Shown: positions 20,113 through 37,487 of the stretch, piece by piece | How the letters are laid out: each line of letters opens with the position of its first letter | Numbering within the stretch: position 1 is the first letter of the stretch | IMG/VR virus record: IMGVR_UViG_3300025133_000299 | Location: 1 to 38,015 of that record | From: a virus | Taxonomy: Duplodnaviria; Caudoviricetes | Reading direction: 5' to 3' (one strand) | DNA length: 38,015 nt | The notes under the pieces: generated by a model | Told to the model about the DNA's origin: nothing | The model's input: only the letters and a program-made list of their open reading frames with translations | Databases searched by the model: none | Program-made: the position numbers and the translations under genes

Positions 20113-20572
20113 CGTTGTCTTCATCCTTCTTGCGATCCTTCTGTCGAACGTACTCACCGGTAGGCTTAAACCCATCGCCCTGAGCAGGACCCGACAGGTC
20201 GGTGTCAACGTAGGACTTCATCCCGTCATCGGTCTTGAACTCCTCGACGTTCACCGTCAGGGACTTGCCGATCAATTCCTTCTCCAGATCGAACTCACCT
20301 TCAGGCTTCAACTGCAAGGTGCGCCTGATAAACAAGCGCAACGCTGCCTTCTCATTGTCCAACACTTTATGAAACGACCGGCGAATGGTCATGTTGTTAC
20401 CGTTGTCGCCCTTCTTATCCAACTCAAAGGTAAGTCGGATGACTCCCTTCGGTTTTCCGTCCACGGGGTCTAGGGACTCGATGTCCACACAGACTCCCTG
20501 ATATGTGCCAACCGGCACCTCTTCCCACTTGCTAGTGGGACCTGTTATTGTTGCGTTTAGCGTTAATGACAT
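20099..20572 (-). CDS. single-stranded DNA-binding protein
   Basis: 'PVGTYQGVCVDIE' OB-fold start; acidic C-terminus ending DDNDVPF-like (EDNDVPF). Confidence 0.7.
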   Translation of the reverse strand: MSLTLNATITGPTSKWEEVPVGTYQGVCVDIESLDPVDGKPKGVIRLTFELDKKGDNGNNMTIRRSFHKVLDNEKAALRLFIRRTLQLKPEGEFDLEKELIGKSLTVNVEEFKTDDGMKSYVDTDLSGPAQGDGFKPTGEYVRQKDRKKDEDNDVPF

Positions 20573-20603
20573 ATATGTCTTCCTTTCTCTACCCCCTTCG
20601 GGG

Positions 20604-20617
20604 TGTAGTTAGCTAGT
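20604..20617 (-). promoter_or_regulatory. ACTAGCTAACTACA motif upstream of SSB
   Basis: Exact 14-mer, one of four copies; followed by a CCCC-GAAG-GGGG hairpin. Confidence 0.55.
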
Positions 20618-20952
20618 TATGGTGTCGCCTGAGTAGTTACGGGCGGCACCTCTTTCTTCCTTAACCCCTTCAGATAATTCAGCACAGCACGGTAGGGGAT
20701 TCGTACTGGACCCTGTTTCCCTTCAAGCAGTTTAACCTTGGTCAACCTGCCTTCAGCCAATAGCCGATCAACGGTCCGTGTGGAGGAGTTAAGCAGCTTC
20801 GCCACTTGCTTCCTCGTCACATGGTCCTGAACGGTAAATAAATTCCCACCACCACCACGACACGGTGCAGAGGATGCAGGCGTGGTATCGCTAGTGTCAT
20901 CGCAGGGGAGTTGAGGCGTGTTAGAGGTGGTGATGGGGAAGATGTTGTTCAT
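20617..20952 (-). CDS. excisionase-like HTH_17 DNA-binding protein
   Basis: 'VTRKQVAKLLNSSTRTVDRLLAEGRL...VRIPYRAVLNYL'. Confidence 0.75.
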   Translation of the reverse strand: MNNIFPITTSNTPQLPCDDTSDTTPASSAPCRGGGGNLFTVQDHVTRKQVAKLLNSSTRTVDRLLAEGRLTKVKLLEGKQGPVRIPYRAVLNYLKGLRKKEVPPVTTQATP

Positions 20953-21038
20953 AGTCCTGTCAAAACCAGCAACGCCACGATCAGGACAAAGCCTGCAAGG
21001 AACGCTGCGTGGAATAGGTCAATAATTTTATTGTTCAT
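20949..21038 (-). CDS. 29-aa single-TM peptide (not in ORF track)
   Basis: MNNKIIDLFHAAFLAGFVLIVALLVLTGL; ATGA overlap with the next gene. Confidence 0.5.
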   Translation of the reverse strand: MNNKIIDLFHAAFLAGFVLIVALLVLTGL

Positions 21039-21044
21039 TGTTTG

Positions 21045-21224
21045 TTAACTGTTCCGGTGTCTACACCTCTTGCCAAATTTTTTTTGGTAGGTGTCTACAC
21101 CTTGGTCTAATAAAAGCCTGCAAAATGATGACAGGCTACGTTGATCCTTTTCGCTCAACGCCCTCAACCTCTCCTTGAGAGAGGCAGGGACCCTGAACCC
21201 TATATGTTCATGTTCTGAATTCAT
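21045..21224 (-). CDS. Arc/CopG-like ribbon-helix-helix regulator (59 aa, not in ORF track)
   Basis: Hand translation MNSEHEHIGFRVPASLKERLRALSEKDQRSLSSFCRLLLDQG...; canonical RHH pattern; ATGA overlap with the upstream ORF. Confidence 0.75.
   Translation of the reverse strand: MNSEHEHIGFRVPASLKERLRALSEKDQRSLSSFCRLLLDQGVDTYQKKFGKRCRHRNS
21056..21101. promoter_or_regulatory. tandem operator-like palindromes GGTGTCTACACC (copies 3 and 4) at a probable promoter
   Basis: Exact copies at 21056-21067 and 21090-21101 flanking an A8 tract and TTGGCA on the minus strand. Confidence 0.7.
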
Positions 21225-21409
21225 TTACACTTGGTCTTGCGGACCGCCTTGAGGTGATGCAGTTGATCCTCAAGTCGAGCTATCCTCTCAGCAAGTGCGT
21301 CGAAGATGGGCTTGAAGTTGTCTGCCGCTCGCAACTGCGCCATGCACCAACAATATTCGGGGGGGATTCCTCCCCCAACCTCACAGTCCGATTTTTTTTG
21401 TTTTGCCAT
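21221..21409 (-). CDS. hypothetical protein
   Basis: 62 aa, C-terminal coiled coil. Confidence 0.5.
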   Translation of the reverse strand: MAKQKKSDCEVGGGIPPEYCWCMAQLRAADNFKPIFDALAERIARLEDQLHHLKAVRKTKCK

Positions 21410-21572
21410 CAGCTTTTTTCTTCATGGTTTTAATTTTCGACTTGAGAATCTCATCGAGCAGGTCGGCAACCGATTTGCCTCGCCGCTGCGCTTCAGCGTA
21501 GAGGGCATCTCTGTTGTCCTCTGCGATCCACGCCGACATGAGTTTCTTACCGGCTTTACGTTGATTGGGCAT
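21381..21572 (-). CDS. ribbon-helix-helix DNA-binding protein
   Basis: 'LMSAWIAEDNRDALYAEAQRRGKSVADLLDEIL'. Confidence 0.7.
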   Translation of the reverse strand: MPNQRKAGKKLMSAWIAEDNRDALYAEAQRRGKSVADLLDEILKSKIKTMKKKADGKTKKIGL

Positions 21573-21638
21573 ATTCCCTGTGTTTCTTCGGAAACGGGCA
21601 GAATAATCATAACTTCCTCCTTCTTTTCAAGAATATTA

Positions 21639-22394
21639 TTATTCAGCAAGTGAAATGTCTCCGATTAGTTGGTTAACCTTTAACTCCTCGTCGAATACAC
21701 GGTGTAGCCGACCCGTCCTGCCCACATGGGTGCCAATCTGGCCTGCGCCCTTCATTGCCTCTGTAAAGGCGTTGAACAGGGACCATGCAGTCCTAGCCTC
21801 AAATGCCTCGTAACGAGGCTTGCGCCACTCCTCAAGGACCGCAGGGACCCGTCTTGGAAGCACCGCACCTGCGTCGAGTGCCTTCACCACGAAGTGGTGG
21901 GCTTTACGGTCAGGCATCTTGGTGCCCTGATAAATCTCGACCCGCCGTTCCTGCCTCTTCTTCTGCTCGGTGGTCCGCAGAAGGGTTTCCATGATCTTGC
22001 CGGTGATGTCCCGCTCGATGTTCTTCGTGTGCTTGCGGTCGAACCGCATCAAGTCACCGTAAAACGACAGGTTGTCGCACACCGTAACGTCGATGCCCAA
22101 CACCAGACCGGCAGACATGGTCTTGTCGTGTGAATTTCTCAAGCCCAACACGGGTGACCAATCGTCTGCCTCCGAGTGGAGTTTCATCAGTCCGAAGTAC
22201 CGGCTACCAAACTTGTCGATGCCGTGCTGCGACTCGACAACGTCCAGCCCAAACTCAGGCATGACCTCCCTCACCATCGAATACAGTTCGTGGTGGGGGA
22301 TGGGGTAGTGGGTGTCCGTAGGCTTGGGGCACGGCACCTGCACCAACTGGTCCCACGGGGTGTCTCTGCACCCGCAATGCAACATCAGGTTCAT
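21639..22394 (-). CDS. DUF932-family protein
   Basis: 'THYPIPH', 'GLRNSHD', 'VCDNL', 'RKHT', 'TAWSLFNAFTE' motifs. Confidence 0.8.
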   Translation of the reverse strand: MNLMLHCGCRDTPWDQLVQVPCPKPTDTHYPIPHHELYSMVREVMPEFGLDVVESQHGIDKFGSRYFGLMKLHSEADDWSPVLGLRNSHDKTMSAGLVLGIDVTVCDNLSFYGDLMRFDRKHTKNIERDITGKIMETLLRTTEQKKRQERRVEIYQGTKMPDRKAHHFVVKALDAGAVLPRRVPAVLEEWRKPRYEAFEARTAWSLFNAFTEAMKGAGQIGTHVGRTGRLHRVFDEELKVNQLIGDISLAE

Positions 22395-22612
22395 GCTGTC
22401 ACCCCCAACTTCTGGTTAGTTGCTGAAGGCACCTTGATGGGGGGCATGACCCCGTTGGGCAACTCACGGTGCGACAAGATTGAGATGCCCTCTCCCAACC
22501 CCTTGCTTGCCTTCTCACGAAGGTGGTTACGGTTCATTTCACGAACCTCTACTGCGTCTGCCTTATCCAAGCAGATGATTTCAATATGATATGTTATTCG
22601 ATCTTTTCTCAT
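22391..22612 (-). CDS. hypothetical protein
   Basis: 73 aa; preceded by the ACTAGCTAACTACA motif. Confidence 0.55.
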   Translation of the reverse strand: MRKDRITYHIEIICLDKADAVEVREMNRNHLREKASKGLGEGISILSHRELPNGVMPPIKVPSATNQKLGVTA

Positions 22613-22638
22613 TGTAGTTAGCTAGTTTGCCCGAAGGC
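22613..22638 (-). promoter_or_regulatory. C(UUCG)G hairpin plus ACTAGCTAACTACA motif abutting the ATG
   Basis: Minus strand GCCTTCGGGC-AA-ACTAGCTAACTACA-ATG. Confidence 0.55.
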
Positions 22639-22640
22639 GT

Positions 22641-22922
22641 TTATGTTTTAACACAAGGGGCAGGACATTGGCTGTCCCACCCCTTAAACTTTTTCCAGTT
22701 ATTTTCGACGACACCCACTTGGGTGTATGCATGGTCGTGAAGTTCAACGTAAGAATCAGTTCCTATTTTCTGGAACCTGACTGTTGACACATCGCCAACG
22801 TCATCCAGCACATCGTACAAACGAGAAATGCTGGCACGACCGGTGCCCTCAACAAGCGCAATAGCTCGGCTTGAGCCATTCAAGCTGCCTTGCCAATCAA
22901 TTAAATAAGCCGTGCTACTCAT
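22641..22922 (-). CDS. hypothetical protein
   Basis: 93 aa ORF overlapping the upstream gene. Confidence 0.55.
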   Translation of the reverse strand: MSSTAYLIDWQGSLNGSSRAIALVEGTGRASISRLYDVLDDVGDVSTVRFQKIGTDSYVELHDHAYTQVGVVENNWKKFKGWDSQCPAPCVKT

Positions 22923-23109
22923 CGCCGTTTGGGATGAACTTTAGTTCGCTTCCCTTGGCCTGATCCAAACCCCTTTTCATTTTTTCCTTCTCGCTCAAGG
23001 GTTTCTTTTTCTTGAAGTGACGGGACTGCATCGACGCTCCGCACTTCCCTTTGATCAAGGGAGTGTTCTCGGCAGTAGCCCAGCCTCTTGGGCTGTAATG
23101 CTTACTCAT
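22915..23109 (-). CDS. small basic hypothetical protein
   Basis: 64 aa, GGAGG RBS directly after the array. Confidence 0.55.
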   Translation of the reverse strand: MSKHYSPRGWATAENTPLIKGKCGASMQSRHFKKKKPLSEKEKMKRGLDQAKGSELKFIPNGDE

Positions 23110-23136
23110 TCCACCACCTCCACTCTCTTCGTTTTT

Positions 23137-23604
23137 GACTCGTTCACCATAAGTGGTTCACTCCCGCTATATGACTCGTTCGGCCCTGATGGTTCACTCG
23201 TATAGCTTGACTCGTTCATTCTTCCTGATTCTCTCTCTCGGATTGACTCGTTCTGTCTGCTTGATTCTCTCATCTCATTAGACTCGTTCCTGTCTTTTGG
23301 GTCCCTCAAAAGCTGTGACTCGTTCGTGGAACTTGGTCCTATCTTGGTGTTTGACTCGTTCGGTCAGGTTGGTTCTCTCCACAATTATGACTCGTTCGCT
23401 TCTTTTGGTTCTCTCGGAGTAAATGACTCGTTCCCCATAAGTGGTTCTCTCCCTACATATGACTCGTTCTGTTATCGTGGTTCTCTCTTATCCAATGACT
23501 CGCTCCCATTTAAAGGTTCTCTCAGGCTGTGTGGCTCGTTCTGTACAAGTGGTTCTCTCTTATCCAATGACTCACTCACGCACCTTGGTTCTCTTGGGAT
23601 GGGT
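23137..23604 (-). ncRNA. TIGR-like guide RNA array: 13 x 36-nt dual-repeat units, each with two 9-nt spacers
   Basis: + strand GACTCGTTC-N9-GGTTCTCTC-N9 at exact 36-nt spacing (23137, 23173 ... 23569), variable spacers, directly downstream of the Nop-domain gene. Confidence 0.88.
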
Positions 23605-23606
23605 GG

Positions 23607-24398
23607 TTAAGCTGCCTTAATGTGGTGTGCGTGACCCTGATGGGCTATCGGGTATGGCAACGGGGGTTCACACTTAAAATGCTCCCTATAGGCAACCTCA
23701 TGCCAATGCGCTAGGAATAGCTTAACTGCGTAACGCTTGGCCCGTGCATGGATGTGCCCCGCTGGCAGCTTGCCCACCGAGTAAGCCTTGTAGGCTTCGG
23801 TCGCCTTGCCAACACGCTTGGCACCTGCGTCTGCCTGCTCCTTGAACTCAAGGTTCTCGTTCTTGAGAATCTCCTGCTCCTTCCGTTGCAAGTAGAACTG
23901 ACCGTAGGTGTCGTTCTTGTTGCCCGACACCTTCACGAACGACTCACCTATCTTCCAACACAGGCACTTCAGGGATGCGTTCCACGGTCGCTTCTCGCCC
24001 TTCTCCCACTTGCAGGTGGGGTCCTGTCCAGCGAACCTCCATATGTGCCCAACGGTGGGTGCCTTGTTGATGTCGATGTGGGCAAGCAATCCTGCCGAGA
24101 TCACCGGACCAATGCCGGTGATACCCATCGCCCATTGACCGATGGGGTGGTGCTTGGCATACACGTTCAATGCCCTTTTAATATTTTTCTCCATCTCCTC
24201 GTTTACATCCCCAACCCAATCCAATAACGAGTGGGGTTCGTCGCTTGTCACCAATGCTCGGACCTGTGCCGTGGCACGAATCCTCGCATCCTGAATTTGA
24301 TAATAAGTGTCAACCAGAAATCGTGCCTGATCAACTGTCATGCGCTTACTCGACTCAAGGAGGTCCTTGGCCAAGGATAGCTTCGGCCTGATGTTCAT
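23607..24398 (-). CDS. tasA: TIGR-associated Nop-domain protein without nuclease domain (TasA-like; IS110 C-terminal/Transposase_20 homolog)
   Basis: Coiled coil 'YYQIQDARIR', 'GITGIGPVISAGLL', 'IWRFAG', 'PWN..LK', 'YGQFY..RK', 'GHIHARAKRYAVKLFL'; no N-terminal DEDD RuvC domain; adjacent array. Confidence 0.82.
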   Translation of the reverse strand: MNIRPKLSLAKDLLESSKRMTVDQARFLVDTYYQIQDARIRATAQVRALVTSDEPHSLLDWVGDVNEEMEKNIKRALNVYAKHHPIGQWAMGITGIGPVISAGLLAHIDINKAPTVGHIWRFAGQDPTCKWEKGEKRPWNASLKCLCWKIGESFVKVSGNKNDTYGQFYLQRKEQEILKNENLEFKEQADAGAKRVGKATEAYKAYSVGKLPAGHIHARAKRYAVKLFLAHWHEVAYREHFKCEPPLPYPIAHQGHAHHIKAA

Positions 24399-24652
24399 GC
24401 TGTCACCTCCACCATCAAGTTGTCATCAGCCAAGTGACCAAGCACAAGGTCGATGGCTTTTAACAAAGCAAATTTCTTTGCCTTGCGGATGCGAAAAGTT
24501 GCGCTGAACACTCCACCACTTCGGTCAATGTCCCGCACCCACCATTCACCTCCATTACAATCCAAAATAAAGGTTGTTCTGTTTGCCTCAATCACAAAGG
24601 CCAACCCGTCTTGCGTGATATCCATTTCAAGCCCTAGTGGTTCGTGTATCAT
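24395..24652 (-). CDS. hypothetical protein
   Basis: 85 aa, ATGA-coupled on both sides. Confidence 0.6.
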   Translation of the reverse strand: MIHEPLGLEMDITQDGLAFVIEANRTTFILDCNGGEWWVRDIDRSGGVFSATFRIRKAKKFALLKAIDLVLGHLADDNLMVEVTA

Positions 24653-24852
24653 GCCGCCACCTCCTTGTCCTCTTCGGTCCGGTCAAACAAAGCCTGCACG
24701 GTCAATGTCTCCTTTGTCTCAGGGTTGGTCAGAGTCTCTGACTTCCCACATGGTTTGCAGAACTCTATCCAGAGTCCCCCGTTATTCAGCACCAAATGGT
24801 TGGTGCCCCCTTCAGGTCTGCGTGTTTCGCAGAGATTACAATAATCACTCAT
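24649..24852 (-). CDS. small zinc-finger-like protein
   Basis: CNLC...CKPC pairs. Confidence 0.6.
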   Translation of the reverse strand: MSDYCNLCETRRPEGGTNHLVLNNGGLWIEFCKPCGKSETLTNPETKETLTVQALFDRTEEDKEVAA

Positions 24853-25136
24853 GCTCCCACCTCCAAATCATGGATTGTGTTACCTGCATTAATTAACATG
24901 GCTTTAGTGCTGAGGCACTCTTTGCGTAGTTCCGTTGCCCAAGTCCACGCCAACTCCCAACCGTTGCTGCCGAGGTAAACATAACAATACAACTCGTACC
25001 GTGCCTCGTCATCCTCAAGGGGATTGTCGTGTAACTTTTTGATCTCAAATTTCCGACGATTGTCGGGAGTCTGTGAGACAATATATTGAGCATTGACGTT
25101 GTCGCCAAAACCCATCTCGTTTCCTAGTTTAATCAT
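24849..25136 (-). CDS. hypothetical protein
   Basis: Likely start MIKLG at 25136, just after the ACTAGCTAACTACA motif. Confidence 0.55.
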   Translation of the reverse strand: MIKLGNEMGFGDNVNAQYIVSQTPDNRRKFEIKKLHDNPLEDDEARYELYCYVYLGSNGWELAWTWATELRKECLSTKAMLINAGNTIHDLEVGA

Positions 25137-25144
25137 TGTGGTTA

Positions 25145-25198
25145 TGTAGTTAGCTAGTCGGAGCATCATCGCTCCCATCTGACTCCCCCTTGGGGGAG
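25145..25198 (-). promoter_or_regulatory. hairpins plus ACTAGCTAACTACA motif downstream of integrase
   Basis: CTCCCCCAAGGGGGAG and GGAGC-GATGAT-GCTCC hairpins, then the motif at 25145-25158. Confidence 0.5.
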
Positions 25199-25216
25199 GC
25201 AGTTGGGAGGGAGGCA

Positions 25217-26542
25217 CTACGCAGCCTTCGGTTCCTTCACCACCGCAACCTGCGGTTGCATGATGTCCACGATCACGGTCGGCTCGACTGTCGAGTCGTG
25301 GTCAGCGTAGACATCGATGGTGGTTTGAATGTTCTTATGTCCCAGTAGCTTTGAGGTGTATGCAATGTCCCGTGTGCGGCTCAGAATCTTGCTGCCGAAA
25401 ATCTTCCGCAACGTGTGCAACCTGCCATCGTCGTCGTCGTTCTGCAACGTGGTGCCAAACTCATCGGCAAGCAACTTGCGGCAACGCTCAAGGACCTGCA
25501 TTCCACCGATGACGAACTTCTCATCACGGTGCCGGTTGGCACCCCGCTTGCCTGCAATCTTCGGCAGGGATGTGACTCTCAGAATCTCGTTAACCAACGA
25601 GGTCGCCATCGGGATTTCACGGGCGACACCGGTCTTGGTGACATGCTTCGGCAGGCACAAGTTGGTGATGGCTGCGTTGTTCCGGTCGGCAACGAAGAAG
25701 TCCTTCGATGTTCCATAAACCTCCTTGCCACGACAACCAGCCGACAGGCAGACCGTCATGAGCGTCCACGCATCGGGGTCAACCACCTTGAGCGTGTTGA
25801 TAAACGCCAGCAACTTTCCGTAAGTCTCCTGAGTGGGTGCCTTGAAGGCAGACTTTTTAGTCTTGGTCTTGTCGAACTTGTTGGGTTCTTTGTTGAAGGC
25901 TTTAGCTTCCTTGATTTTGAAGCAGTCGAAGTTGTGGTGCTTCTCGTAGTAAGGGCGAGCTTGCACTCCGAAGATGGCATGTGCCCTCCGCAACTCGTCG
26001 TCGATGCTGCGCTTGGTCTTGTCCAGCTTGATGTGGTAGGCAACAGGGTCATCCTCCTTCACCATACCTGCCATGTTGGTTTCCAAGCGGACCTGCATGT
26101 AAGTGTCGCTGACCGGTCCGGTGAACGCATCGTCGATCCGCATCTTGTCGAGCTTGCCGGTCGTCGCTTCGGACAACTTCTGACGAGGCACGATAGCCTC
26201 CTTGGTGTGGGTAGCGTTCAGCACACGGTAGAGTGTCTGCACAACCGCAGCGGCAGCGTTCTTGGTGATGTCGATCAACCCGTCCTTGACACCTTGACGG
26301 TACATGGCAACGACCTCACCGATCTTCTCGATTTGGTTGCGGCGAGATGGTGCGACGAACCCTTCAGCACGGAAGTTGTCCACCATAGTTTTGATGCGAG
26401 CTTTGGCGACTCGCTTGTCGGCAGTCTTGAGAGATCGCTTGAACTGGTTGCCCTTCCCGTTACCTCCATCAACGTGGGGGAACTGAAGGGTGACGTAGTA
26501 GCCGGTCTTGCCTGTGGGTATTCTCGGATTTGGGTATTTCAT
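25217..26542 (-). CDS. int: tyrosine recombinase / phage integrase
   Basis: GCRGKE (R), TKT (K), HTLR, LLGH...TTIDVY catalytic residues; N-terminal 'RSLKTADKRVAK' arm-binding-like segment. Confidence 0.9.
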   Translation of the reverse strand: MKYPNPRIPTGKTGYYVTLQFPHVDGGNGKGNQFKRSLKTADKRVAKARIKTMVDNFRAEGFVAPSRRNQIEKIGEVVAMYRQGVKDGLIDITKNAAAAVVQTLYRVLNATHTKEAIVPRQKLSEATTGKLDKMRIDDAFTGPVSDTYMQVRLETNMAGMVKEDDPVAYHIKLDKTKRSIDDELRRAHAIFGVQARPYYEKHHNFDCFKIKEAKAFNKEPNKFDKTKTKKSAFKAPTQETYGKLLAFINTLKVVDPDAWTLMTVCLSAGCRGKEVYGTSKDFFVADRNNAAITNLCLPKHVTKTGVAREIPMATSLVNEILRVTSLPKIAGKRGANRHRDEKFVIGGMQVLERCRKLLADEFGTTLQNDDDDGRLHTLRKIFGSKILSRTRDIAYTSKLLGHKNIQTTIDVYADHDSTVEPTVIVDIMQPQVAVVKEPKAA

Positions 26543-26544
26543 GA

Positions 26545-26640
26545 TGTAGTTAGCTAGTGTTTTGTTTCAAGCACCCCTTCGGTGCTGCCCCCAACGTAGC
26601 AGGTGTCTACACCGGCACAAGCCTTTTTTTAACTTTTTTA
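26545..26640 (-). promoter_or_regulatory. probable early promoter with operator (copy 5), leader hairpin and ACTAGCTAACTACA motif
   Basis: A-tracts, TTGTGC-16 nt-TACGTT with extended TGn, GGTGTAGACACC (26602-26613) in the spacer, GCACC-GAAGG-GGTGC hairpin, motif at 26545-26558. Confidence 0.55.
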
Positions 26641-26923
26641 AACGCCTTTAAAACAGGGTTCAAGGGGGCAAGCTCAAGGGTGCAAAACGTGCGCCTATTT
26701 ATGGCTAATTCTGTCTAATGTTGGCGAATAATCATTCAGCCAGAAGCCCAATGCGCCCAATGTTTATGGGGGCGAAGTGTGCCTTTTTAAGAATTTCCTA
26801 GAATGCGGAAACTAGGCTGGTCATCTCTGGTGAAAATTACTGACACCCCCCAATCAAGGCAAAAACCCCAATGAAAAGCGATTGAAATGTTTCGGGGGTC
26901 AGGTTTAGGGTCCTAAATGGGGG
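26641..26923. other. non-coding region, candidate attP
   Basis: Part of the largest non-array intergenic gap, next to the integrase; short repeats CCCAAT(G) x4 and GGGGTCAG x2. Confidence 0.4.
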
Positions 26924-29900
26924 TCAGTTTTTACCCCTGTTCAGGAGGGCATCCGCTGCCGCTTGAGTAGCTGCCACACCCATCAATTTGCCGCTCAGGT
27001 TGTATGCCCTGAACTTCTTGGGACCGGTCTGCACGATCCTCCCTTTGGTCGGGATCGTGACGACCTTACCGTCCTCCGAGACACGGGGCATGTACCTGTT
27101 CTTGATCTCCACCGCAGAGTCCTCAAACACCACATAGTTGTAGGTCTGCTTGAAGCCTTCCTTCGGCTTGCCCATGCTGGTTGTGGCACGGGATGAGGCA
27201 TCGGCAAACCGGTTGCCTGCTATGCCTATGTTCGCAAGCCTTGCAGATACATCTGACGGTCGCCTTGAGACTGCCTCTAGGTTCTTCACAAAGTGTAGCC
27301 CTTGACCTCTGTCGTTCACAAAGTCGGACAGGTACAAGTCGGAACCAGACTCGGCATCGAACACCCGCTTCCCGCCCTTCAGTAGAGCATCCTTCACATA
27401 CTTCGATTGCTCCTTGAAGGGCTTGTCCAAGTCTAGGAAGTGTTCCTCCTTTGGAGTGATGTCCACTTCGTACATGCTGCCCACCACAGGTTGATCGATC
27501 TCGATATCAAAGTCATCAGGCTTTAAAGATTCCACCGCACTCAAAGCCTTTTTTGCGTCTGCTAGTTTCGCTTTATTGAAATCCTTTTCTCCGTGTATCT
27601 CAATATTACTTGTCCACAAACCAACATCCCACTCCGCAGATTTCTTAAACTTGGGAATTAATTCTTCCTTTAGATACTGCTTTGCCCTAGCCACACTTGT
27701 CCGCTTGCTATTATACCTCGCTCGACCGACCACAAAATCGTCAATCCAAGTCCTTATCTGACTAAACCCTTGCTCCCCAAGTTCTGTCAGGTTTTTGTTT
27801 TTCAGCTTAACCTCGACATTGCTATGAGTGGCCAAGTTGCGATTATCGGTCAACTTATCCCGATACCACTCAGCCACACTCTTCTTCTCAGCAAAGTACA
27901 GTCCGTGTCCGTATGCCTGCGCCCCTTCACCGGTCCCAATCTTGTCGGTGGAGAACCTGCCCAACGGTGCCCCCTCTTCTGCGGCAAACGTATGCGGTGT
28001 GCCGTGGTAGGCTGGTATGTACCTGATGTCATCCGACTCCATGTTGAACCGGTCGTGCAAGGGGATTGGGTTGCCCCCGTCATCAAGCGTCACAGGGTCG
28101 GCAGACTTTATTTGGTTTGACTCAAACGCCGCATATGTGGTCCCGCCCCTCTCGGTTGTGATGTACCCATCATGCCCTAGCTTTTTTAGCAACTCGGTCA
28201 CGCCTGCGGTTTCAAAAAAACCATAGTCGCCTGAAGCAATCCACTTTCTCAGTCGGGAGTTGAACTCAGGCTCATGGGCAGCCTTGTCTTCCATCGCACC
28301 CTTTGACCTTCTCTCCAACTCGTCAACCAACTTAACCATCTTCTCACCCTCGAACGACACGTTAACCTCCCCGCCCCATTCCCTGATTGCATAAAGCGCA
28401 TCATTAATGTGTGACGGGTTTCTGTAGTCGAACGGATTGTCCAGCTTCAGGTAACCCTTAACTATATCCCCTTTGCCCTCGACTAGCTTGCCATAGGCAT
28501 CCCCGACATGCATTTGCCTGCCAGCAAATGTCTTTGCCACATCCTCGCTATCAGATGTCATAATATGCCCCCAAGCATTCTTTGTTGGATCGAACTCTGT
28601 GAACGGTCGGTTTGCTGGAGTGCTGTCATCCTCTGGAATTGTCCTGCCATGATACACCGGACCGGTGTCATACCCCGCCCGTGCCGCAGCCTGATCCACC
28701 GCAGCCTGCATGGTGTCCACATCACCCTTCGCCACAGCATCCATGTAGTCAGATTCCATACGGGCAGTCTCGGCAGGGAAGTATCGGTGCTGGCTTCGGT
28801 CGCCTTCCACCAACCCTCCTTTCTTGCCCACATCATCTGCCCTCACGAATACCGTGTTGCCCACAGAGATAGCCTCTGAGGCACTTTCTATCGGAATGCT
28901 ATGGTTGTCCTTCCGGTAGAAGTATTCGTGCCTGTGGGGGTCCATACCGACCTGCAACCACTTCTCAGGGTTGTGCAGGTCAGCGGGGATGGCATCATCG
29001 AGTAGCTTGCCTTTCTTGTCGTGGATGGGCACCCACTCACCCTCTACGGTTGCCATCGGAAATTTACCCATCCTTCCTTCGGCAATTTTGTTAATGTCCT
29101 TCACCCCTCCGATGGCTTTACTGATAAACATCGTCACGTTTTTGATCCGTGCAATGGAATCATAACCGTATATGTCACGGACGTTGGGTGCGTGGATGGC
29201 TACGGCATATGCCTCCTTGTCCAAGACTCCCGCAGCGGCAAGTTCACGGGTCCGAGTCAGGAAGGGTATGTCCTGCCGCAACCCAACCCGTTCGCCTGCC
29301 GGTAATTGTCGGGCGGCACCTATCAACTCCCGTTGAGCCTTGCTCAACATTTGCAACGAAGCCTTGAGAGGCTTGTCGCCTTTTTTGAAATTTTTCGCTG
29401 CCTCCCTCGCCTCCTCACGGGACAAGCCTTGGTCTGGAACTAGTCCACGCTTGGTCGGGATAGGTGACAGGCTGACCGGACTCCTCCTGTCCACAACCGC
29501 ATCCCAATCCCTGCCGGTGACGTTGTCCCTCCGTGCCTGCCCCATCACAGGGTCGGTGCTGCCTTTAATTGTCTCAGGCATGTAGTTGACAGGATGGTCT
29601 ATGGGTGGACCCATCTTGCCAGCGGTAAGTAAGTCCAATTCAGGGACGATTGTCTGCAAGGGCTGCGGACCCACCGACCCGTCCTTTCCAAACACATTGC
29701 CGCCGGTTAGTTCACCTGTCTTTGGGTTAACTGCCCTGCTTATGCCGCTGGACAAACTACTCAAGGGGTAAAATTCTTTAGCGTATGCTACCGGCTCAAC
29801 CTTAATGGTGTGCCCATAGTGATAATGTAAATTGGGTTCGTGAATGATGGGAGTGTCGGCTTTAACCTTCATCACCGCAACCACAGTCCCGATTGGAAAC

Positions 29901-32900
29901 TTCTTCTCATCCCACAACCCTTTATCAACTCCCATTCTTGCGGTTGCGCTTGGGCCAAAGCCAAGTTCTTCTGCCTGAGCCTTATTGAAATTAAACTTGG
30001 TGCCCTTGGTTCCCCTTTGGCCAGAAATTGCTTCGCCTGCCCTGTGCGTTAATTTGCCTGAGTCAACCGCATCAATAAACTGCTGAACACTTCGTATCTC
30101 TCGCAGGGCATCTCGTTCAGTCTGCAATGCCTTCTTCTGCATACCGGCTATTTGGCGAGTGTTTTCCATCAAGCCTTTGATGTAAGCATCCCCATGCTTC
30201 TTGGTAATGTCTCCACGGGCAACAGCATCCCTCACACTCTCTCCAAACAGCCGCAAACCGTATCGTGTGTTGTTGTGGTTCAGTTCGCCTAACATCGACA
30301 AGGCAACATACTCGGTGCCCACATCCCGAAGGTGTTTAAATAAAGTCTTGAAAGGTGTTGGGTCATACGATGCCCACTTGCCTTCCAGCCACATGAACGC
30401 ACGACCACCCTGTGCTGCAATCTCACTTGATGCACCACTCATTAACTCCCTTACTCCGTGCCCCAATCGATCTATAGACAAGGCAACCATTTTTTCCTGC
30501 TGCATATCACGAAAGTCCATGTACCGTGCCCCTTCGGGGGCAACGGGCATGAACCTCTCAGCCATTGCCTCGTTGAACTCGATGACCTCACCATGCTCCT
30601 TCACCTTCGGAGTGCCATCGGGCATCAGGTTCTCCTTCACCTTGTGGTAATCAAAGTGGAAGTCCTCCCTCATGGTGCTTTCCACACTACCAATCCGATC
30701 CAGCCTGAATGACTTCACAATCGATGTGCGGTCCACCGGTCGGTTGTTCAAGATGTCATGCATCGGACTGACACCACCCGATCCGGTCATGTCCCTCATC
30801 AGGAATGCCCTGAACGCATTGCGCTTGGCTTCACCTATACCCTCGGCACCACCCAATCCTTTGCGGTGGTTGTCCATGTAAATTTTCAGGTCCTCGTAAA
30901 ACCTCTTAACGTCATTGCCCCACAGTTCCAGCTTGGGTCTGCCGTTGGCATCCGTGTCTCTCTGCCAACGGGATACCTTGTCGTGAATCGCATCCACATC
31001 CAAGGACTGCACGGTGATGTTGCCCTCCTTGGTGATCCTATATTCAAACGGTTTGATGTCTCTTCGGGACGCAGCAATGTTTCCCATGAACTTGCGAAGG
31101 TTTCTCCTCCACATCCTTGTCGTTCCACGCAGGTCAGGGGTGCCGTCCTTGGTGGTCTTCACCACCTCGTTCATCTTTATCTTCTTCGACTTGGTTGTGC
31201 TGATCCCGTTGTACCAAACCATCGCAGTCGTTCCGTTGCCCACCAACTCGTTCAGCAACTTTAAATGCTCCTTCATTTGCGGTGGAAGATTGGATGCTTC
31301 TATCACCTCGTCGGGGATAGCCTTACCGGTCACCTCGATGCTGCCGTCAGCACCCTCACGGGCACCTAGCGTGGTCTTGTCGTCCCTTCCTATAAGACCC
31401 TTGGCAACCAACCCTTCACGCAGCCTCCGTGTTCCCTCGGCACGGTCGTGCAATGTCTTGGCAATCTCATCGTGCCCCTTGACGGTTACCTCTCCCTTGG
31501 CATTCTTTGTGGCAAAGTCATTCTCAAACGTACCGTCACCCTTGTCCCTCCAAAACCCTGCACGGTCACCCATGTTCAGGATGTCCTGCTTGGTACCTCC
31601 ACCGTCAGGGTTCTTTGCCCTTCGACTCATCTCATCAAAGTGCCTGCCCCTGTCACGGATATAGTTGCGGAGAGTCTTTTTGAATTTTTTGTCGCCGGTC
31701 ATATCCCCGAAGATTCGGGAAGCATAGGCACCATCCACCCTGCCTAATGGGTCCAGCTTTCCCCCCATCTTCCGTTGGATCGCTGCCTTGGTTCTCAGCA
31801 TGGCACCACGCAGGTGGAATAAATCTTCACCGGTCTTGCCCTTGCGAAGTTTGTTCAGGTTCCTGTCGAGTGTTGACCCGACAAAGTCCTCCGCAAAGAT
31901 TTCGGAATGTACCCAATCCAAACCAAACTGCTTGGTTAGGTCGGCACGTTCTGCGTTCACCGCAACATCGAAGTCGTCAACTCCTTTGGTTGGCTTGCCT
32001 TCCTTCCACCTTTGGACCGCATCGTCCGCAGCCTTGGAGAAGGGGTTCTTAAACCTTCGCCTCACCCTGTTCTCTGCCAACCTCTCAACGTAATTCGTAG
32101 CCATTGCATCGATGCGAGTCTGCCCGTAGACCCCGACAAGTTCTGCCGTCATCTCGGACTTGTTCACCACGGGGCTATCCCATAATGCATGACCAAACTC
32201 ATGGAGGATGTTTTGCCTGCGCCCCTTGACATCGGATGCCTCGATGTTGATGTCAATGGACTTCCTCTCCGGTGACCATGCCGCAGCACCTGCCTTGTGT
32301 GCCTTGTTGTATTGGGCATTGGTTAACAGGTTGATTGCAACATCCCCTTGAAAAATTCTCTCCAACGTTGCGGTCTTCAGCAAGGCATCCCGCCCCAACT
32401 TTGCAAACGCTTGCTTCGGGTCAACACCCTTCTTGGCCTGAGCCTCAAGGAACCGCATCACATCGGCATCCTCCGCTGACCTTCTTGCGTGACCGGTTAG
32501 CTTTGACAGACCGGCACCACCAAGTGCGGCAGGTCCACCAATTCCAATTCCAGCACCTATTCCCTGCAACATGCCTTCCTCTCCCTGTGCCAGATAACCT
32601 AACCCGCCGCCAACCACCATGCCGGTGCCAACACCGAGTGCCAACGTGCCGGTGCCTGAAAGTAACTTGTCTCCAGCACCACCCATGTGAAGGATTCGTG
32701 CTAGTTTTCTCAGGTTGGGGTCAACCGTGGAATCCATTGCAACTCTCTCAAGGACTCCGAACTGTGAAGGCCGCTTGCCAAGGGACTCGCCAACCTTCTC
32801 GCCCAACCTGCCAGCAACATCCAAAGACCTGCCTATAGTTGGTGCCGCTAGTGCAAGACCTATCGCCGGTTGTCCTGATACGGTTGAGCCTGCGATACCT

Positions 32901-33766
32901 AACACCCTTGCTGTCGTCTGGCTTGCTTCAGGGATTACCTTGCCGACCTTCTCTCCGATGGCATCGGTGACCTTTGTGACCCCCCTTCCGGTTCCACCGA
33001 CTGCCTTTCCTGCAACCCCTCCCACTTTGCCTGCCACTTTTGCCCCAAGAGATGGCAACTTGGTGAAGGCACCGGCAGCAGGGATTGCCATTGTGAAGTC
33101 TCCGACATAACCAAACGCCTCGGCACCGGCTACATCTTCTCCCTCGATCTCACCTATTAACGGTAGGGTGGTTTTTGTTTCGCCGGTTCTCCACTTCTCT
33201 CGCTCAACCTCATAAGCACGTTTGAGGTTGAACCGCATCTTATCCTTGGACAGTTGTCGGATGTAGTCCTGCCGTGAATCTTGGTCGTCCTCGCTGCCGG
33301 TGTCTTCCAAGTATTTCTCGTAGGTGTCGGCAGCGTGGAAGTCTTTGGTGAAGATGTCTCCAATGATATGAAACATGTCGGTCCCGCCACGGGCAGAACC
33401 AGACACCAATGTCTTAATTCCTTTTAAGGGGTCAGTTAAATAAAGTCCCTGACTAACTGCACTCCATATTCCACCAAAGAACTCTTCCCCAACCATCTCC
33501 AGCCCTTGGCCAACGATGCCAAGTTTCTCGTCAAAGGTCTTTTCCGGTTCAACCGACTTCGCACGACGATACCGCTCAAACTCCTCGTAGCCCAACTGTC
33601 GGCTTGGGTCGCCTTCAACTGCCTCCACCAACTCCGTTCCGGTGAAGGGGATGATGCCGCCTGCGGCAATTGCTCCACCTTCGGGTGTCGCAGTAGCCGC
33701 ATAAGGACCCAACCCTAACTCTCTGTTTTCTTCATCGGAAAACGGAATCAATTCTTGTGATGCCAT
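26924..33766 (-). CDS. large internal virion/ejection polyvalent protein with zincin (HEFGH) and two ADP-ribosyltransferase-like domains
   Basis: 2280 aa; G/A-rich hydrophobic segment, HExxH motif, 'VYHG...F.EF...YLKLDNP...GHDG...FESNQIKS' and 'AYHGTPH.F...GTGEGAQAYGHGLYFAE'. Confidence 0.75.
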   Translation of the reverse strand: MASQELIPFSDEENRELGLGPYAATATPEGGAIAAGGIIPFTGTELVEAVEGDPSRQLGYEEFERYRRAKSVEPEKTFDEKLGIVGQGLEMVGEEFFGGIWSAVSQGLYLTDPLKGIKTLVSGSARGGTDMFHIIGDIFTKDFHAADTYEKYLEDTGSEDDQDSRQDYIRQLSKDKMRFNLKRAYEVEREKWRTGETKTTLPLIGEIEGEDVAGAEAFGYVGDFTMAIPAAGAFTKLPSLGAKVAGKVGGVAGKAVGGTGRGVTKVTDAIGEKVGKVIPEASQTTARVLGIAGSTVSGQPAIGLALAAPTIGRSLDVAGRLGEKVGESLGKRPSQFGVLERVAMDSTVDPNLRKLARILHMGGAGDKLLSGTGTLALGVGTGMVVGGGLGYLAQGEEGMLQGIGAGIGIGGPAALGGAGLSKLTGHARRSAEDADVMRFLEAQAKKGVDPKQAFAKLGRDALLKTATLERIFQGDVAINLLTNAQYNKAHKAGAAAWSPERKSIDINIEASDVKGRRQNILHEFGHALWDSPVVNKSEMTAELVGVYGQTRIDAMATNYVERLAENRVRRRFKNPFSKAADDAVQRWKEGKPTKGVDDFDVAVNAERADLTKQFGLDWVHSEIFAEDFVGSTLDRNLNKLRKGKTGEDLFHLRGAMLRTKAAIQRKMGGKLDPLGRVDGAYASRIFGDMTGDKKFKKTLRNYIRDRGRHFDEMSRRAKNPDGGGTKQDILNMGDRAGFWRDKGDGTFENDFATKNAKGEVTVKGHDEIAKTLHDRAEGTRRLREGLVAKGLIGRDDKTTLGAREGADGSIEVTGKAIPDEVIEASNLPPQMKEHLKLLNELVGNGTTAMVWYNGISTTKSKKIKMNEVVKTTKDGTPDLRGTTRMWRRNLRKFMGNIAASRRDIKPFEYRITKEGNITVQSLDVDAIHDKVSRWQRDTDANGRPKLELWGNDVKRFYEDLKIYMDNHRKGLGGAEGIGEAKRNAFRAFLMRDMTGSGGVSPMHDILNNRPVDRTSIVKSFRLDRIGSVESTMREDFHFDYHKVKENLMPDGTPKVKEHGEVIEFNEAMAERFMPVAPEGARYMDFRDMQQEKMVALSIDRLGHGVRELMSGASSEIAAQGGRAFMWLEGKWASYDPTPFKTLFKHLRDVGTEYVALSMLGELNHNNTRYGLRLFGESVRDAVARGDITKKHGDAYIKGLMENTRQIAGMQKKALQTERDALREIRSVQQFIDAVDSGKLTHRAGEAISGQRGTKGTKFNFNKAQAEELGFGPSATARMGVDKGLWDEKKFPIGTVVAVMKVKADTPIIHEPNLHYHYGHTIKVEPVAYAKEFYPLSSLSSGISRAVNPKTGELTGGNVFGKDGSVGPQPLQTIVPELDLLTAGKMGPPIDHPVNYMPETIKGSTDPVMGQARRDNVTGRDWDAVVDRRSPVSLSPIPTKRGLVPDQGLSREEAREAAKNFKKGDKPLKASLQMLSKAQRELIGAARQLPAGERVGLRQDIPFLTRTRELAAAGVLDKEAYAVAIHAPNVRDIYGYDSIARIKNVTMFISKAIGGVKDINKIAEGRMGKFPMATVEGEWVPIHDKKGKLLDDAIPADLHNPEKWLQVGMDPHRHEYFYRKDNHSIPIESASEAISVGNTVFVRADDVGKKGGLVEGDRSQHRYFPAETARMESDYMDAVAKGDVDTMQAAVDQAAARAGYDTGPVYHGRTIPEDDSTPANRPFTEFDPTKNAWGHIMTSDSEDVAKTFAGRQMHVGDAYGKLVEGKGDIVKGYLKLDNPFDYRNPSHINDALYAIREWGGEVNVSFEGEKMVKLVDELERRSKGAMEDKAAHEPEFNSRLRKWIASGDYGFFETAGVTELLKKLGHDGYITTERGGTTYAAFESNQIKSADPVTLDDGGNPIPLHDRFNMESDDIRYIPAYHGTPHTFAAEEGAPLGRFSTDKIGTGEGAQAYGHGLYFAEKKSVAEWYRDKLTDNRNLATHSNVEVKLKNKNLTELGEQGFSQIRTWIDDFVVGRARYNSKRTSVARAKQYLKEELIPKFKKSAEWDVGLWTSNIEIHGEKDFNKAKLADAKKALSAVESLKPDDFDIEIDQPVVGSMYEVDITPKEEHFLDLDKPFKEQSKYVKDALLKGGKRVFDAESGSDLYLSDFVNDRGQGLHFVKNLEAVSRRPSDVSARLANIGIAGNRFADASSRATTSMGKPKEGFKQTYNYVVFEDSAVEIKNRYMPRVSEDGKVVTIPTKGRIVQTGPKKFRAYNLSGKLMGVAATQAAADALLNRGKN

Positions 33767-36600: not shown

Positions 36601-36973
36601 AATTCTGTTTCTCCATTGCTAGTGCCTTTTTGTAAAATTTCCCCCAAGACCAAATCTTGGGTTCAGGATTATCGCCCCTGTGCCATGACACATAAGGCAG
36701 GGGGAGTGGTGCTATATTGAAAAACCTTGTGACCGCAGCACCGCAGCCCAAGTAAACAAACCAAGTGTCCCAAGTGTCAGGCTTGAATGTAAACTTGTAG
36801 TCGAGAGCAAAGCCGATGTCCCTCGATGAAACCGGCCTAGCCATCACAAAGATGTCATCGCCGGAATAGACATAACCATGCCGCAAGTAGAACGAGAAAT
36901 CCTCCTCGAATGATCGAGGAGATATCTCGTCATAACAGTCCTCCTTGGCTATGTCTACTGGTCGCCTATTCAC
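36587..36973 (-). CDS. GNAT-like small protein preceding ejection genes (T7 gp13-like position)
   Basis: 128 aa aromatic-rich alpha/beta protein; call rests on synteny. Confidence 0.4.
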   Translation of the reverse strand: MNRRPVDIAKEDCYDEISPRSFEEDFSFYLRHGYVYSGDDIFVMARPVSSRDIGFALDYKFTFKPDTWDTWFVYLGCGAAVTRFFNIAPLPLPYVSWHRGDNPEPKIWSWGKFYKKALAMEKQNYGQH

Positions 36974-37487
36974 CGGACTCTTCAGCCTCCTCCTCTTCAG
37001 CCTCCTCCTCTTCAGCCTCCTCCTCTTCAGTCTCTTCTGCGGCTTCCTCTGCGGCTTCTTCAGCTACAGCTTCCTCTGCCTCTACCTCTTCTGCCTCCTC
37101 TACCTCTTCAGCGGGAGCTTCAGCCTCCTCTTCGCTAGGCAACTCGCTGTAGCCGTCACCTATACTCATGCTGGCAAAGTCGGGCATCTCCCTGCTCGGT
37201 GCGGCTACCGGTGCTGTCATCTGTGCTGCAATTCTTGTTTGTAATTCCAAGTACCACCCACCAGACCCGATCACCCCTTCTACGAATGCCTCGGCGGCAG
37301 CCTCAAACTCTTCAAGCGATTGGCATGGAACACTTATGCGTTCGTCTTTGTATGCGGATTTCCCGCTCTCCTGATCCGTGGCAGTTATGCCGAGAATCAC
37401 CGAATCGACACACCCCGATTGAGTCGGATGGCTGTCGTGTACTACTGAAACGTCCCATCGGGTTACGTCATATCGTATATTTGCCAT
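36966..37487 (-). CDS. hypothetical tail-associated protein with Glu/Ala-rich C-terminal tail
   Basis: 173 aa; last about 55 aa are EEEAE repeats. Confidence 0.6.
   Translation of the reverse strand: MANIRYDVTRWDVSVVHDSHPTQSGCVDSVILGITATDQESGKSAYKDERISVPCQSLEEFEAAAEAFVEGVIGSGGWYLELQTRIAAQMTAPVAAPSREMPDFASMSIGDGYSELPSEEEAEAPAEEVEEAEEVEAEEAVAEEAAEEAAEETEEEEAEEEEAEEEEAEESGE
36979..37133. repeat. low-complexity tandem repeat (TCTTCAGCCTCCTCC x3 and variants)
   Basis: 15-nt units encoding EEEAE. Confidence 0.8.

What the first reader, a model, noticed from the sequence alone, without database searches (positions are those of the whole stretch)
23137..23604. Spacer co-variation fixes the guide register and predicts 18-bp targets
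Seen (+ strand X/Y spacers either side of GGTTCTCTC): units 23461 (tgttatcgt/ttatccaat) and 23533 (tgtacaagt/ttatccaat) are related in both spacers, as are 23137 (accataagt/ccgctatat) and 23425 (cccataagt/cctacatat). Pairing across the other repeat shows no such similarity. Inference: GAGAGAACC is the internal loop repeat and GAACGAGTC the processed edge. If target = spacer A + reverse complement of spacer B, predicted targets include ATTGGATAATGTTATCGT, ATTGGATAATGTACAAGT, ATATAGCGGACCATAAGT, ATATGTAGGCCCATAAGT, AAGCTATACGGCCCTGAT, AATCCGAGAATTCTTCCT, TAATGAGATTGTCTGCTT and ATTTACTCCGCTTCTTTT. Related guides suggest tracking of target variants or unit duplication, which bears on how spacers are acquired.
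Basis: partly seen in the sequence, partly recalled or inferred. Interest (0 to 1): 0.75.

Follow-up and report, generated by a model that had tools for sequence, protein, structure and literature searches.

The report
Phage TIGR guides: register proven, 16-bp
This is a new member of a known phage RNA-guided DNA-binding system (TIGR-TasA): the boundaries of its 13 guides can be read from matched changes in the repeats, each guide is predicted to bind a 16-letter DNA site rather than an 18-letter one, and no real target was found.

Summary
The 13 units of 36 nt are real. They lie on the minus strand directly after a 263-aa nuclease-less Tas gene (PDB hits TasR and TasH), so this is a dual-repeat TIGR-TasA locus of a marine phage.

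Two Watson-Crick pairs form between the 3' half of one edge repeat and the 5' half of the next in 13 of 13 window guides, with compensatory variants (363 of 427 guides in related arrays, 323.5 after permutation). All 13 listed strain breakpoints fall at edge repeats.

The spacers are 8 nt, not 9. Pair 1/9 is related in both halves; pair 10/12 shares only spacer A convincingly.

No target was found: not in the own genome, kin phages, or a relative's host genome. Public hits for 4 of 13 guides showed no co-occurrence above controls. In related arrays, copies and half-guide swaps are common, which favours duplication and recombination over variant tracking. The scan noted an 8-nt-spacer TIGR array before, on other DNA.

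The parts
23607..24398 (-). tasA: 263-aa Nop-domain Tas protein without a nuclease domain (P0001); Y249 and H256 near the C-terminus
   Evidence: phmmer to 9MTY (TasR) E 1.3e-14 and TasH E 5.1e-13; model pLDDT 88, no strand of 3 or more residues; best 10 Foldseek ranks are TasH/TasR; Y249 and H256 invariant in 40 of 40 aligned homologs
23141..23608 (-). TIGR array: 13 predicted 36-nt guides, each half edge (5) + spacer A (8) + loop (10) + spacer B (8) + half edge (5); first guide 23573-23608, last 23141-23176, step 36
23604..23608 (-). 5' half edge repeat AACCA, overlapping the tasA stop codon; pairs with the variant next edge GAGTG
   Evidence: sequence; compensatory pairs G:C and T:A
23136..23577 (-). 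13 full edge repeats, consensus GAACGAGTCA, at 23136-23145 + 36k; predicted cut between positions 5 and 6
   Evidence: 5-nt half edges end related arrays L002, L003, L004, L023, L031, L032
23154..23595 (-). 13 loop repeats, consensus GAGAGAACCA, at 23154-23163 + 36k
   Evidence: position 4:7 unpaired in 404 of 427 loops, position 3:8 paired in 379 of 427
23465..23500 (-). guide 10: spacer A identical to guide 12, spacer B 4 of 8 alike
23537..23572 (-). guide 12: partner of guide 10, two units away
23429..23464 (-). guide 9: spacer B 7 of 8 alike to guide 1 (8 of 8 in an allele with A at 23434 in run X2), spacer A 5 of 8
23141..23176 (-). guide 1: partner of guide 9
23501..23536 (-). guide 11: begins AGCCA and ends GAGCG, a C:G pair in place of the usual U:A (compensatory change inside the window)
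23118..23140 (-). orphan half unit at the 3' end: rest of the edge, one 8-nt spacer and a degenerate loop that runs into the purine-rich ribosome-binding-like site of ORF 22915-23109
   Evidence: no terminator-like site found there

Best explanation
This is a dual-repeat TIGR array of 13 guides behind a nuclease-less TasA gene in a marine phage; the transcript is predicted to be cut in the middle of each GAACGAGUCA edge repeat into 36-nt guides with two 8-nt spacers, which likely direct a TasA dimer to 16-bp sites in other mobile elements, where it would block transcription without cutting. Shown here: the protein family, the repeat anatomy, the guide register (paired and co-varying edge halves) and the guide as the unit of gain and loss. 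Inferred from published relatives: processing by the C-terminal Y249/H256 dyad, the target geometry A + reverse complement of B, and repression. Inferred by exclusion and analogy only: that the targets are competing phages. The related guides 1/9 and 10/12 most likely arose by copying a guide within the array, followed by drift or exchange of one half at the loop repeat.
For: Protein. Register: both Watson-Crick pairs (edge position 8 with next-edge position 3, position 7 with 4) in 13 of 13 window guides, including variant guides 11 and 13; 363 of 427 unique guides against 323.5 +/- 4.1 in 2000 within-array permutations, none reaching it. Between arrays, an identical spacer A keeps its own B in 105 of 111 cases, while an identical B keeps the next A in 53 of 97. 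All 13 listed loose ends of strain contigs (8 distinct boundaries; 5 more rows not shown) lie within 1 base of an edge repeat boundary. Spacer length: 489 of 539 parsed units are 8 + 8; the flanking repeat positions are G/A in 427 of 427 loops and 426 of 427 edges, and A in about 82%; SpTasH also has 8-nt spacers. Copying: 22 related within-array pairs in the set that includes the window, 4 identical and 9 with one identical spacer and 4 to 7 differences in the other; L006 unit 23 joins A of unit 21 to B of unit 16. Repression by TasA: Xu et al. 2026, section 12. Not self-targeting.
Against: No RNA was seen, so processing is not shown. No target was found in any pool, so the target class is unsupported by direct data, and kin phages showed no enrichment (383 guides against 726 kb: 0 exact, 7 at one mismatch, 6.0 shuffled). 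Repression was shown for MbTasA in a study of stem-loop systems, not for this dual-repeat clade. The match of Y249/H256 to SpTasH Y289/H296 rests on spacing and position; the phmmer alignment to TasH ended at residue 188, and TasR has W opposite Y249. The 427 guides and the link counts include related arrays and are not independent. The array lacks the usual 3' half edge plus terminator.
Confidence: 0.7

Rival explanations
1. Related guides were each acquired from variants of one target site (escape tracking or primed re-acquisition), possibly one spacer at a time in a copied unit.
For: In both window pairs the differences form one block of 3 or 4 adjacent bases in one spacer. One of six reading frames puts some differences at third codon positions (post hoc). 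Strain contigs share the end guides and continue with other spacers after the edge repeat of unit 9. For most half-identical pairs I did not identify a donor unit for the differing half.
Against: Exact hits of guides 10 and 12 (20 and 42 loci) and of guides 9 and 1 (5 and 68 loci) share no homologous target ORF across the pair. Exact copies and a demonstrable chimera exist in relatives. An allele makes spacer B of guide 9 identical to guide 1. Shared spacers differ less than third codon positions of tasA (e.g. 3 of 240 against 26 of 259 for L004/L007; biased by the 4-mismatch cut-off).
Confidence: 0.2
2. The effective target is 18 bp, either with the conserved A pairing at both ends or with a 2-bp gap or fixed dinucleotide between the two 8-bp halves.
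For: TasR and FpTasA use 9 + 9 nt, and TasR tolerates 1- and 2-bp gaps (PMC12045711). Aligned on the paired bases, the 10-nt repeats here have one extra 5' purine relative to the 9-nt TasR repeat (inference).
Against: Both flanking positions are conserved like repeat bases, the A is the last base of the box C motif, and SpTasH pairs 8-nt spacers. Gaps of 1 and 2 gave no enrichment either. No A8 x B8 covariation that would point to an overlap (P = 0.92, n = 350).
Confidence: 0.08
3. TasA acts on host genes or on the phage's own life cycle (repression of host defence genes, or an aid to the nearby integrase).
For: tasA lies about 0.8 kb from an integrase gene (25217-26542). Faure et al. raise the integrase-aid idea and Xu et al. 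raise host silencing. This phage's host is unknown and was not searched.
Against: No site with 0 or 1 mismatch in the 38-kb contig in either geometry or register, gaps 0 to 2. Synonymous-only self matches: 2 of 185 guides against 1 to 3 in controls. For a relative in a bacterial genome (L032, Tas 56% identical), 11 guides gave 0 exact and 1 one-mismatch site (0.6 expected) in 2.62 of 3.06 Mb of its host assembly. Fast guide turnover fits moving targets better.
Confidence: 0.12

Closest known systems
Dual-repeat TIGR-TasA (FpTIGR; Faure et al. 2025, PMC12045711)
   Same: Solo Nop-domain Tas, adjacent array of edge-A-loop-B units of 36 nt, half edge at the 5' end, A-rich loop, extra base pair in the edge.
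   Different: 8-nt rather than 9-nt spacers and 10-nt repeats; the 3' end here is an orphan half unit running into the next gene's ribosome-binding-like site, without a terminator. The two repeat 10-mers were not found in the four supplement files held as text.
SpTIGR / SpTasH of Salicola phage CGphi29 (PMC12045711, PMC13421893, bioRxiv 2026.08.11.744272)
   Same: 8 + 8 nt spacers; best structural match (TM 0.69); Y...H pair 7 residues apart near a flexible C-terminus.
   Different: SpTasH has an N-terminal HNH nuclease and cuts DNA; this protein starts directly with helices. About 23 to 29% identity.
MbTasA and inactive TasR repressors (Xu et al. 2026, bioRxiv 2026.09.09.750476)
   Same: Nuclease-free Tas that binds DNA by guide and represses transcription: the model for what this protein would do.
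   Different: That study's focus is stem-loop systems, which lack the Y/H loop; repression was not tested for this clade in the sections I read.
VIPR systems (bioRxiv 2026.04.26.720920)
   Same: Phage-borne guide arrays acting by repression against competing phages: an analogy for the target class.
   Different: A different protein family (described as RAMP-related) and a non-contiguous GGY/NN code; natural targets were found there, none here.
IS110/IS621 bridge-RNA recombinases
   Same: Related RNA-binding fold (Foldseek E 0.02 to 0.07); PHROGs labels the protein 'transposase'.
   Different: No DEDD RuvC domain, a much weaker match than Tas, and a multi-unit guide array instead of one bridge RNA.

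Membership tests
TIGR-Tas, dual-repeat | Nop-domain Tas protein next to the array | tested here: met
   the array starts at the stop codon
TIGR-Tas, dual-repeat | Two alternating 8-12-nt repeats separated by 8-12-nt spacers, about 5-15 units, 36-nt period | tested here: met
   10 + 8 + 10 + 8, 13 units
TIGR-Tas, dual-repeat | Box C/D pair in both repeats and an additional co-varying pair in the edge, formed between successive edges | tested here: met
   position 3:8 paired in 412 of 427 edges (guide register) and 379 of 427 loops; 4:7 in 425 of 427 edges and 23 of 427 loops
TIGR-Tas, dual-repeat | 5' truncated edge at the start; 3' truncated edge and terminator at the end (typical, not universal) | tested here: inconclusive
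   5' half edge present; the 3' end is a full edge plus an orphan half unit and no terminator; six related arrays do end in a 5-nt half edge
TIGR-Tas, dual-repeat | C-terminal Y/H processing dyad | tested here: met
   Y249 and H256 invariant in 40 of 40; same spacing as SpTasH Y289/H296; equivalence inferred, not aligned
TIGR-Tas, dual-repeat | Processing into 36-nt RNAs bound by Tas | not testable with these tools
   no RNA holder listed
TIGR-Tas, dual-repeat | Tandem-spacer binding of dsDNA, A and B on opposite strands | tested here: inconclusive
   no natural target found
TasA subtype | No N-terminal HNH or RuvC domain | tested here: met
   263 aa; helices from residue 11, no strand of 3 or more residues; residue 51 aligns to TasR residue 136; longer fused forms were not searched
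IS110 transposase | N-terminal DEDD RuvC domain | tested here: not met
CRISPR array | One 25-36-nt repeat alternating with spacers of similar size | tested here: not met
   two 10-nt repeats and 8-nt spacers; no Rfam match in 20500-27000

The most novel reading that the evidence does not exclude
TIGR arrays of this clade renew their guides without a dedicated adaptation enzyme and without a leader end: an existing guide is copied, often two units away, and one spacer at a time is then replaced, the retained half anchoring the guide at a known site while the new half is taken from the adjacent DNA of a variant target. Guides 10 and 12, and 9 and 1, would be snapshots of this. Basis: 9 of 22 related within-array pairs keep one spacer exactly; 7 of 22 lie two units apart against 8.4% expected (P = 0.002, post hoc); end guides are shared among strains while inner guides differ.
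Probability: 0.15. Interest if true: 0.8.

Novelty: new member of a known kind. Interest (0 to 1): 0.3.

Why it matters
Natural targets and spacer acquisition are the two stated open questions for TIGR-Tas. This locus does not answer them, but it gives a secure guide register from sequence alone, a corrected 16-bp target length for a large TasA clade (6466 homologs), and a small comparative set showing how arrays change: whole guides gained and lost at edge repeats, inner rather than end turnover, exact copies, half-guide exchanges and an excess of two-unit spacing. A 263-aa PAM-free programmable DNA binder with 13 ready guides is easy to test in a laboratory strain.

Tried and rejected
Self-targets: none at 0 or 1 mismatch in 38 kb, both geometries, both registers, gaps 0-2; best was one site at 2 mismatches. 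A 3-mismatch site of guide 11 at 28733 has all mismatches at third codon positions, but the guide version would read a stop, so I rejected it (worked by hand).

Kin phages: 258 guides against 294 kb, 2 at one mismatch against 1.8 shuffled; 383 guides against 726 kb, no enrichment at gaps 0-2.

Public collections: only 4 of 13 window targets were scanned in IMG/VR (guides 10, 9, 1, 12: 20, 5, 0, 42 loci) and 1 of 13 in metagenomes (guide 1: 68 loci). No shuffled-pair scan was run in these collections, so the counts are uncalibrated. Co-occurrence of other guides at up to 2 mismatches: 5 in 875 kb against 5-17 in controls, 4 in 490 kb against 3-8. Recurrent hits were single gene families: 4 of 20 (ribonucleotide-reductase-like LDNVI), 7 of 42 (HD-hydrolase-like KLADRLDN) and 11 of 68 (aldo-keto-reductase-like); these three labels are recalled from motifs, not from a call. 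None of the 16 window proteins tried matched the hit loci.

Host targets in a relative: none exact in 2.62 of 3.06 Mb; 0.44 Mb not examined.

Guides aimed at other tas genes (target 9 reads LWAYI): 8 of 383 guides give a Tas 5-mer against 8.9 shuffled. Spacer overlap: no A x B covariation (best P 0.002 of 64 tests). New guides inheriting the neighbour's repeat variants: no excess at distances 1-6.

No RNA holder listed. Units 9-10 have almost no cover in runs X4 and X8; lack of cover proves nothing. Host not identified: no tRNA, no close cultured phage, integrase scan of viral contigs empty. Four capsid-related records lack a TasA match but are 11-53% complete fragments. One search was uninformative.

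Full report
Setting. The window is a 38,015-base virus record with SU10-type capsid and portal, terminase, primase-helicase and an integrase. Two marine metagenome runs hold half or more of the sampled words, one of them possibly the source. The host is unknown.

Observation. Thirteen 36-nt units start at 23137. Pairs 1/9 and 10/12 match at 14 of 18 positions, the next pair at 9, and the best pair in the other register at 10. One of the nine bases in each spacer is T in 12 of 13 units, so it belongs to the repeat. On the variable 8 nt both pairs score 12 of 16, which is rare under partner shuffling (P 0.003 to 0.009), while the all-pairs correlation is not significant (P 0.16). Pair 10/12 has one identical spacer and one at 4 of 8 (chance 0.14); pair 1/9 has 7 of 8 and 5 of 8.

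Identity. The ORF 23607-24398 (minus) ends at the array. It matches TasR (E 1.3e-14) and TasH (E 5.1e-13) by sequence and by fold (best 10 ranks). The model has helices from residue 11 and no strand of three or more residues, so no nuclease domain. Y249 and H256 are invariant in 40 of 40 homologs, with the spacing of the SpTasH processing residues Y289/H296. There are 6466 homologs. Of 52 homolog loci fetched (21 viral; 31 in genomes), 33 gave four or more parsable units of this repeat type. This is a dual-repeat TIGR-TasA locus.

Register. Faure et al. describe pairs formed between different edge repeats of one processed guide. I tested that here. Edge position 8 pairs with position 3 of the next edge, and 7 with 4, as Watson-Crick pairs in 13 of 13 window guides. 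Guide 11 starts AGCCA and ends GAGCG, and guide 13 starts AACCA and ends GAGTG: compensatory changes that fit only this register. Over 427 unique guides, 363 have both pairs against 323.5 +/- 4.1 when next edges are permuted within arrays (0 of 2000 reach it; four near-duplicate arrays, L005, L009, L012 and L052, were left out). Loops keep pair 3:8 (379 of 427) but not 4:7 (23 of 427). The same rule explains the alternation of two edge sequences over eight units of L032. The pairs place the cut between edge positions 4 and 7; 5-nt half edges at array ends point to 5|6. Two further lines agree. Between arrays an identical A keeps its B in 105 of 111 cases, an identical B keeps the next A in 53 of 97 (counts not independent). 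In strain contigs all 13 listed loose ends lie at edge boundaries, none at a loop (8 distinct boundaries, 5 rows not shown, likeness cut-off 80%).

Spacer length. 489 of 539 parsed units are 8 + 8. The base before each spacer is A in about 82% and the base after is a purine in all but one case. SpTIGR is the published 8 + 8 case. The geometry A + reverse complement of B is my inference from the TasR C-5 rule and 8-nt 3' overhang. There is no A x B covariation suggesting overlap.

Targets. Every test was negative. Own genome: no site at 0 or 1 mismatch. Kin phages: 383 guides against 726 kb, 0 exact and 7 at one mismatch, shuffled 0.3 and 6.0. Four of 13 window targets in IMG/VR gave 20, 5, 0 and 42 exact loci, and one in metagenomes gave 68; the hits lie in unrelated ORFs and several frames, the paired guides share no target gene family, and other guides co-occur no more than in controls. 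A relative's 11 guides have no exact site in 2.62 of 3.06 Mb of its host assembly. Synonymous-only self matches: 2 of 185 against 1 to 3. These results do not show that targets are absent; 16-mers are too short to call singly, as Xu et al. also note.

Origin of related guides. Among 22 related within-array pairs (two in the window; L005 and L012 left out as duplicates), 4 are identical, 9 share one spacer exactly and differ at 4 to 7 bases in the other, and one unit joins halves of two other units of its array. Seven of 22 lie two units apart, as do guides 10 and 12, against 8.4% expected (P 0.002, noticed post hoc). Run X2 carries an allele that makes spacer B of guide 9 identical to that of guide 1. 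In seven related arrays the shared guides keep their order and losses or gains occur throughout, with the first guide shared by five of seven; strain contigs share guides 1 and 12-13 and continue with other neighbours. So I see no CRISPR-like leader polarity. Shared spacers differ less than tasA third positions (biased by the similarity cut-off). Copying and recombination explain the pairs without a target; re-acquisition from variants is not excluded.

Mechanism. Shown: family, anatomy, register, unit of turnover. Inferred: co-transcription with tasA on the minus strand, cutting by Y249/H256, binding of 16-bp sites by a dimer, steric repression as for MbTasA. Weakest step: that targets are competing mobile elements; it rests on the absence of self and host matches, fast turnover, and analogy with VIPR.

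Literature seen. PMC12045711: parts 1-4 of 12 of the text, passages, and a two-term search of four supplement files; its figures were not visible. bioRxiv 2026.09.09.750476: abstract and sections 5, 10, 12, 13. PMC13421893, bioRxiv 2026.08.11.744272 and 2026.04.26.720920: passages only. Yang et al. 2026 (Mol Cell) is known to me only through citations. Preprint supplements are closed, so this locus or its repeat type may be among the 6685 arrays of TIGRFinder. Three searches listed no paper on natural TIGR targets or on two-unit spacing; that is not proof of absence.

Verdict. A new member of a known system. Interest 0.3.

Noticed in passing
L032:4826-5113 and L022:3738-3950: Two different edge repeats alternate unit by unit in L032 (eight units with unrelated spacers); L022 uses the same two edge types. 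Each guide remains internally paired, so two guide scaffolds are interleaved.
   Followed up: partly
window 22688-24406: One low-depth contig in run X3 joins these two places with 24 other letters between, as if a relative lacked the whole tasA-array cassette; only 26 bases align on the left side.
   Followed up: no
window 22389-22417, 24393-24421, 24847-24875: A repeated 29-nt motif spans the stop and start junctions of several small minus-strand genes around the cassette; it could aid exchange of gene modules.
   Followed up: no
window 23573-23608; L001:8690-8730; L002:2075-2115: The first guide after the stop codon is similar in the window, L001 and L002 (C-rich spacer A, variant edge GAGTG) although no other parsed guide is shared with the window: an old, fixed leading unit.
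   Followed up: partly
L003 unit 1 and L006 unit 15: The same guide (15 of 16) occurs in two arrays with different edge repeats, whose Tas proteins are 75% and 63% identical to the window's; both are followed by the same variant edge start, which suggests transfer between arrays.
   Followed up: no
L003:7234-8050: A gene-like stretch of about 0.8 kb lies between tasA and its array in L003.
   Followed up: no
L014, L020, L024, L025, L035, L045: Arrays split into blocks, lying on both sides of tas, or containing many 37-38-nt units.
   Followed up: no
window 26924-33766 (-): 2280-aa protein with an ART-PolyVal ADP-ribosyltransferase domain at residues 1720-1890, a polyvalent-type phage protein.
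   Followed up: no
window 21639-22394 (-): DUF932 gene about 0.7 kb downstream of the array in the same direction.
   Followed up: no
window 25169-25212: 21-nt inverted repeat with a 2-nt centre just after the integrase stop codon.
   Followed up: no
window 36978-37109: Short tandem repeats (15-, 12- and 18-nt periods) inside ORF 36966-37487.
   Followed up: no
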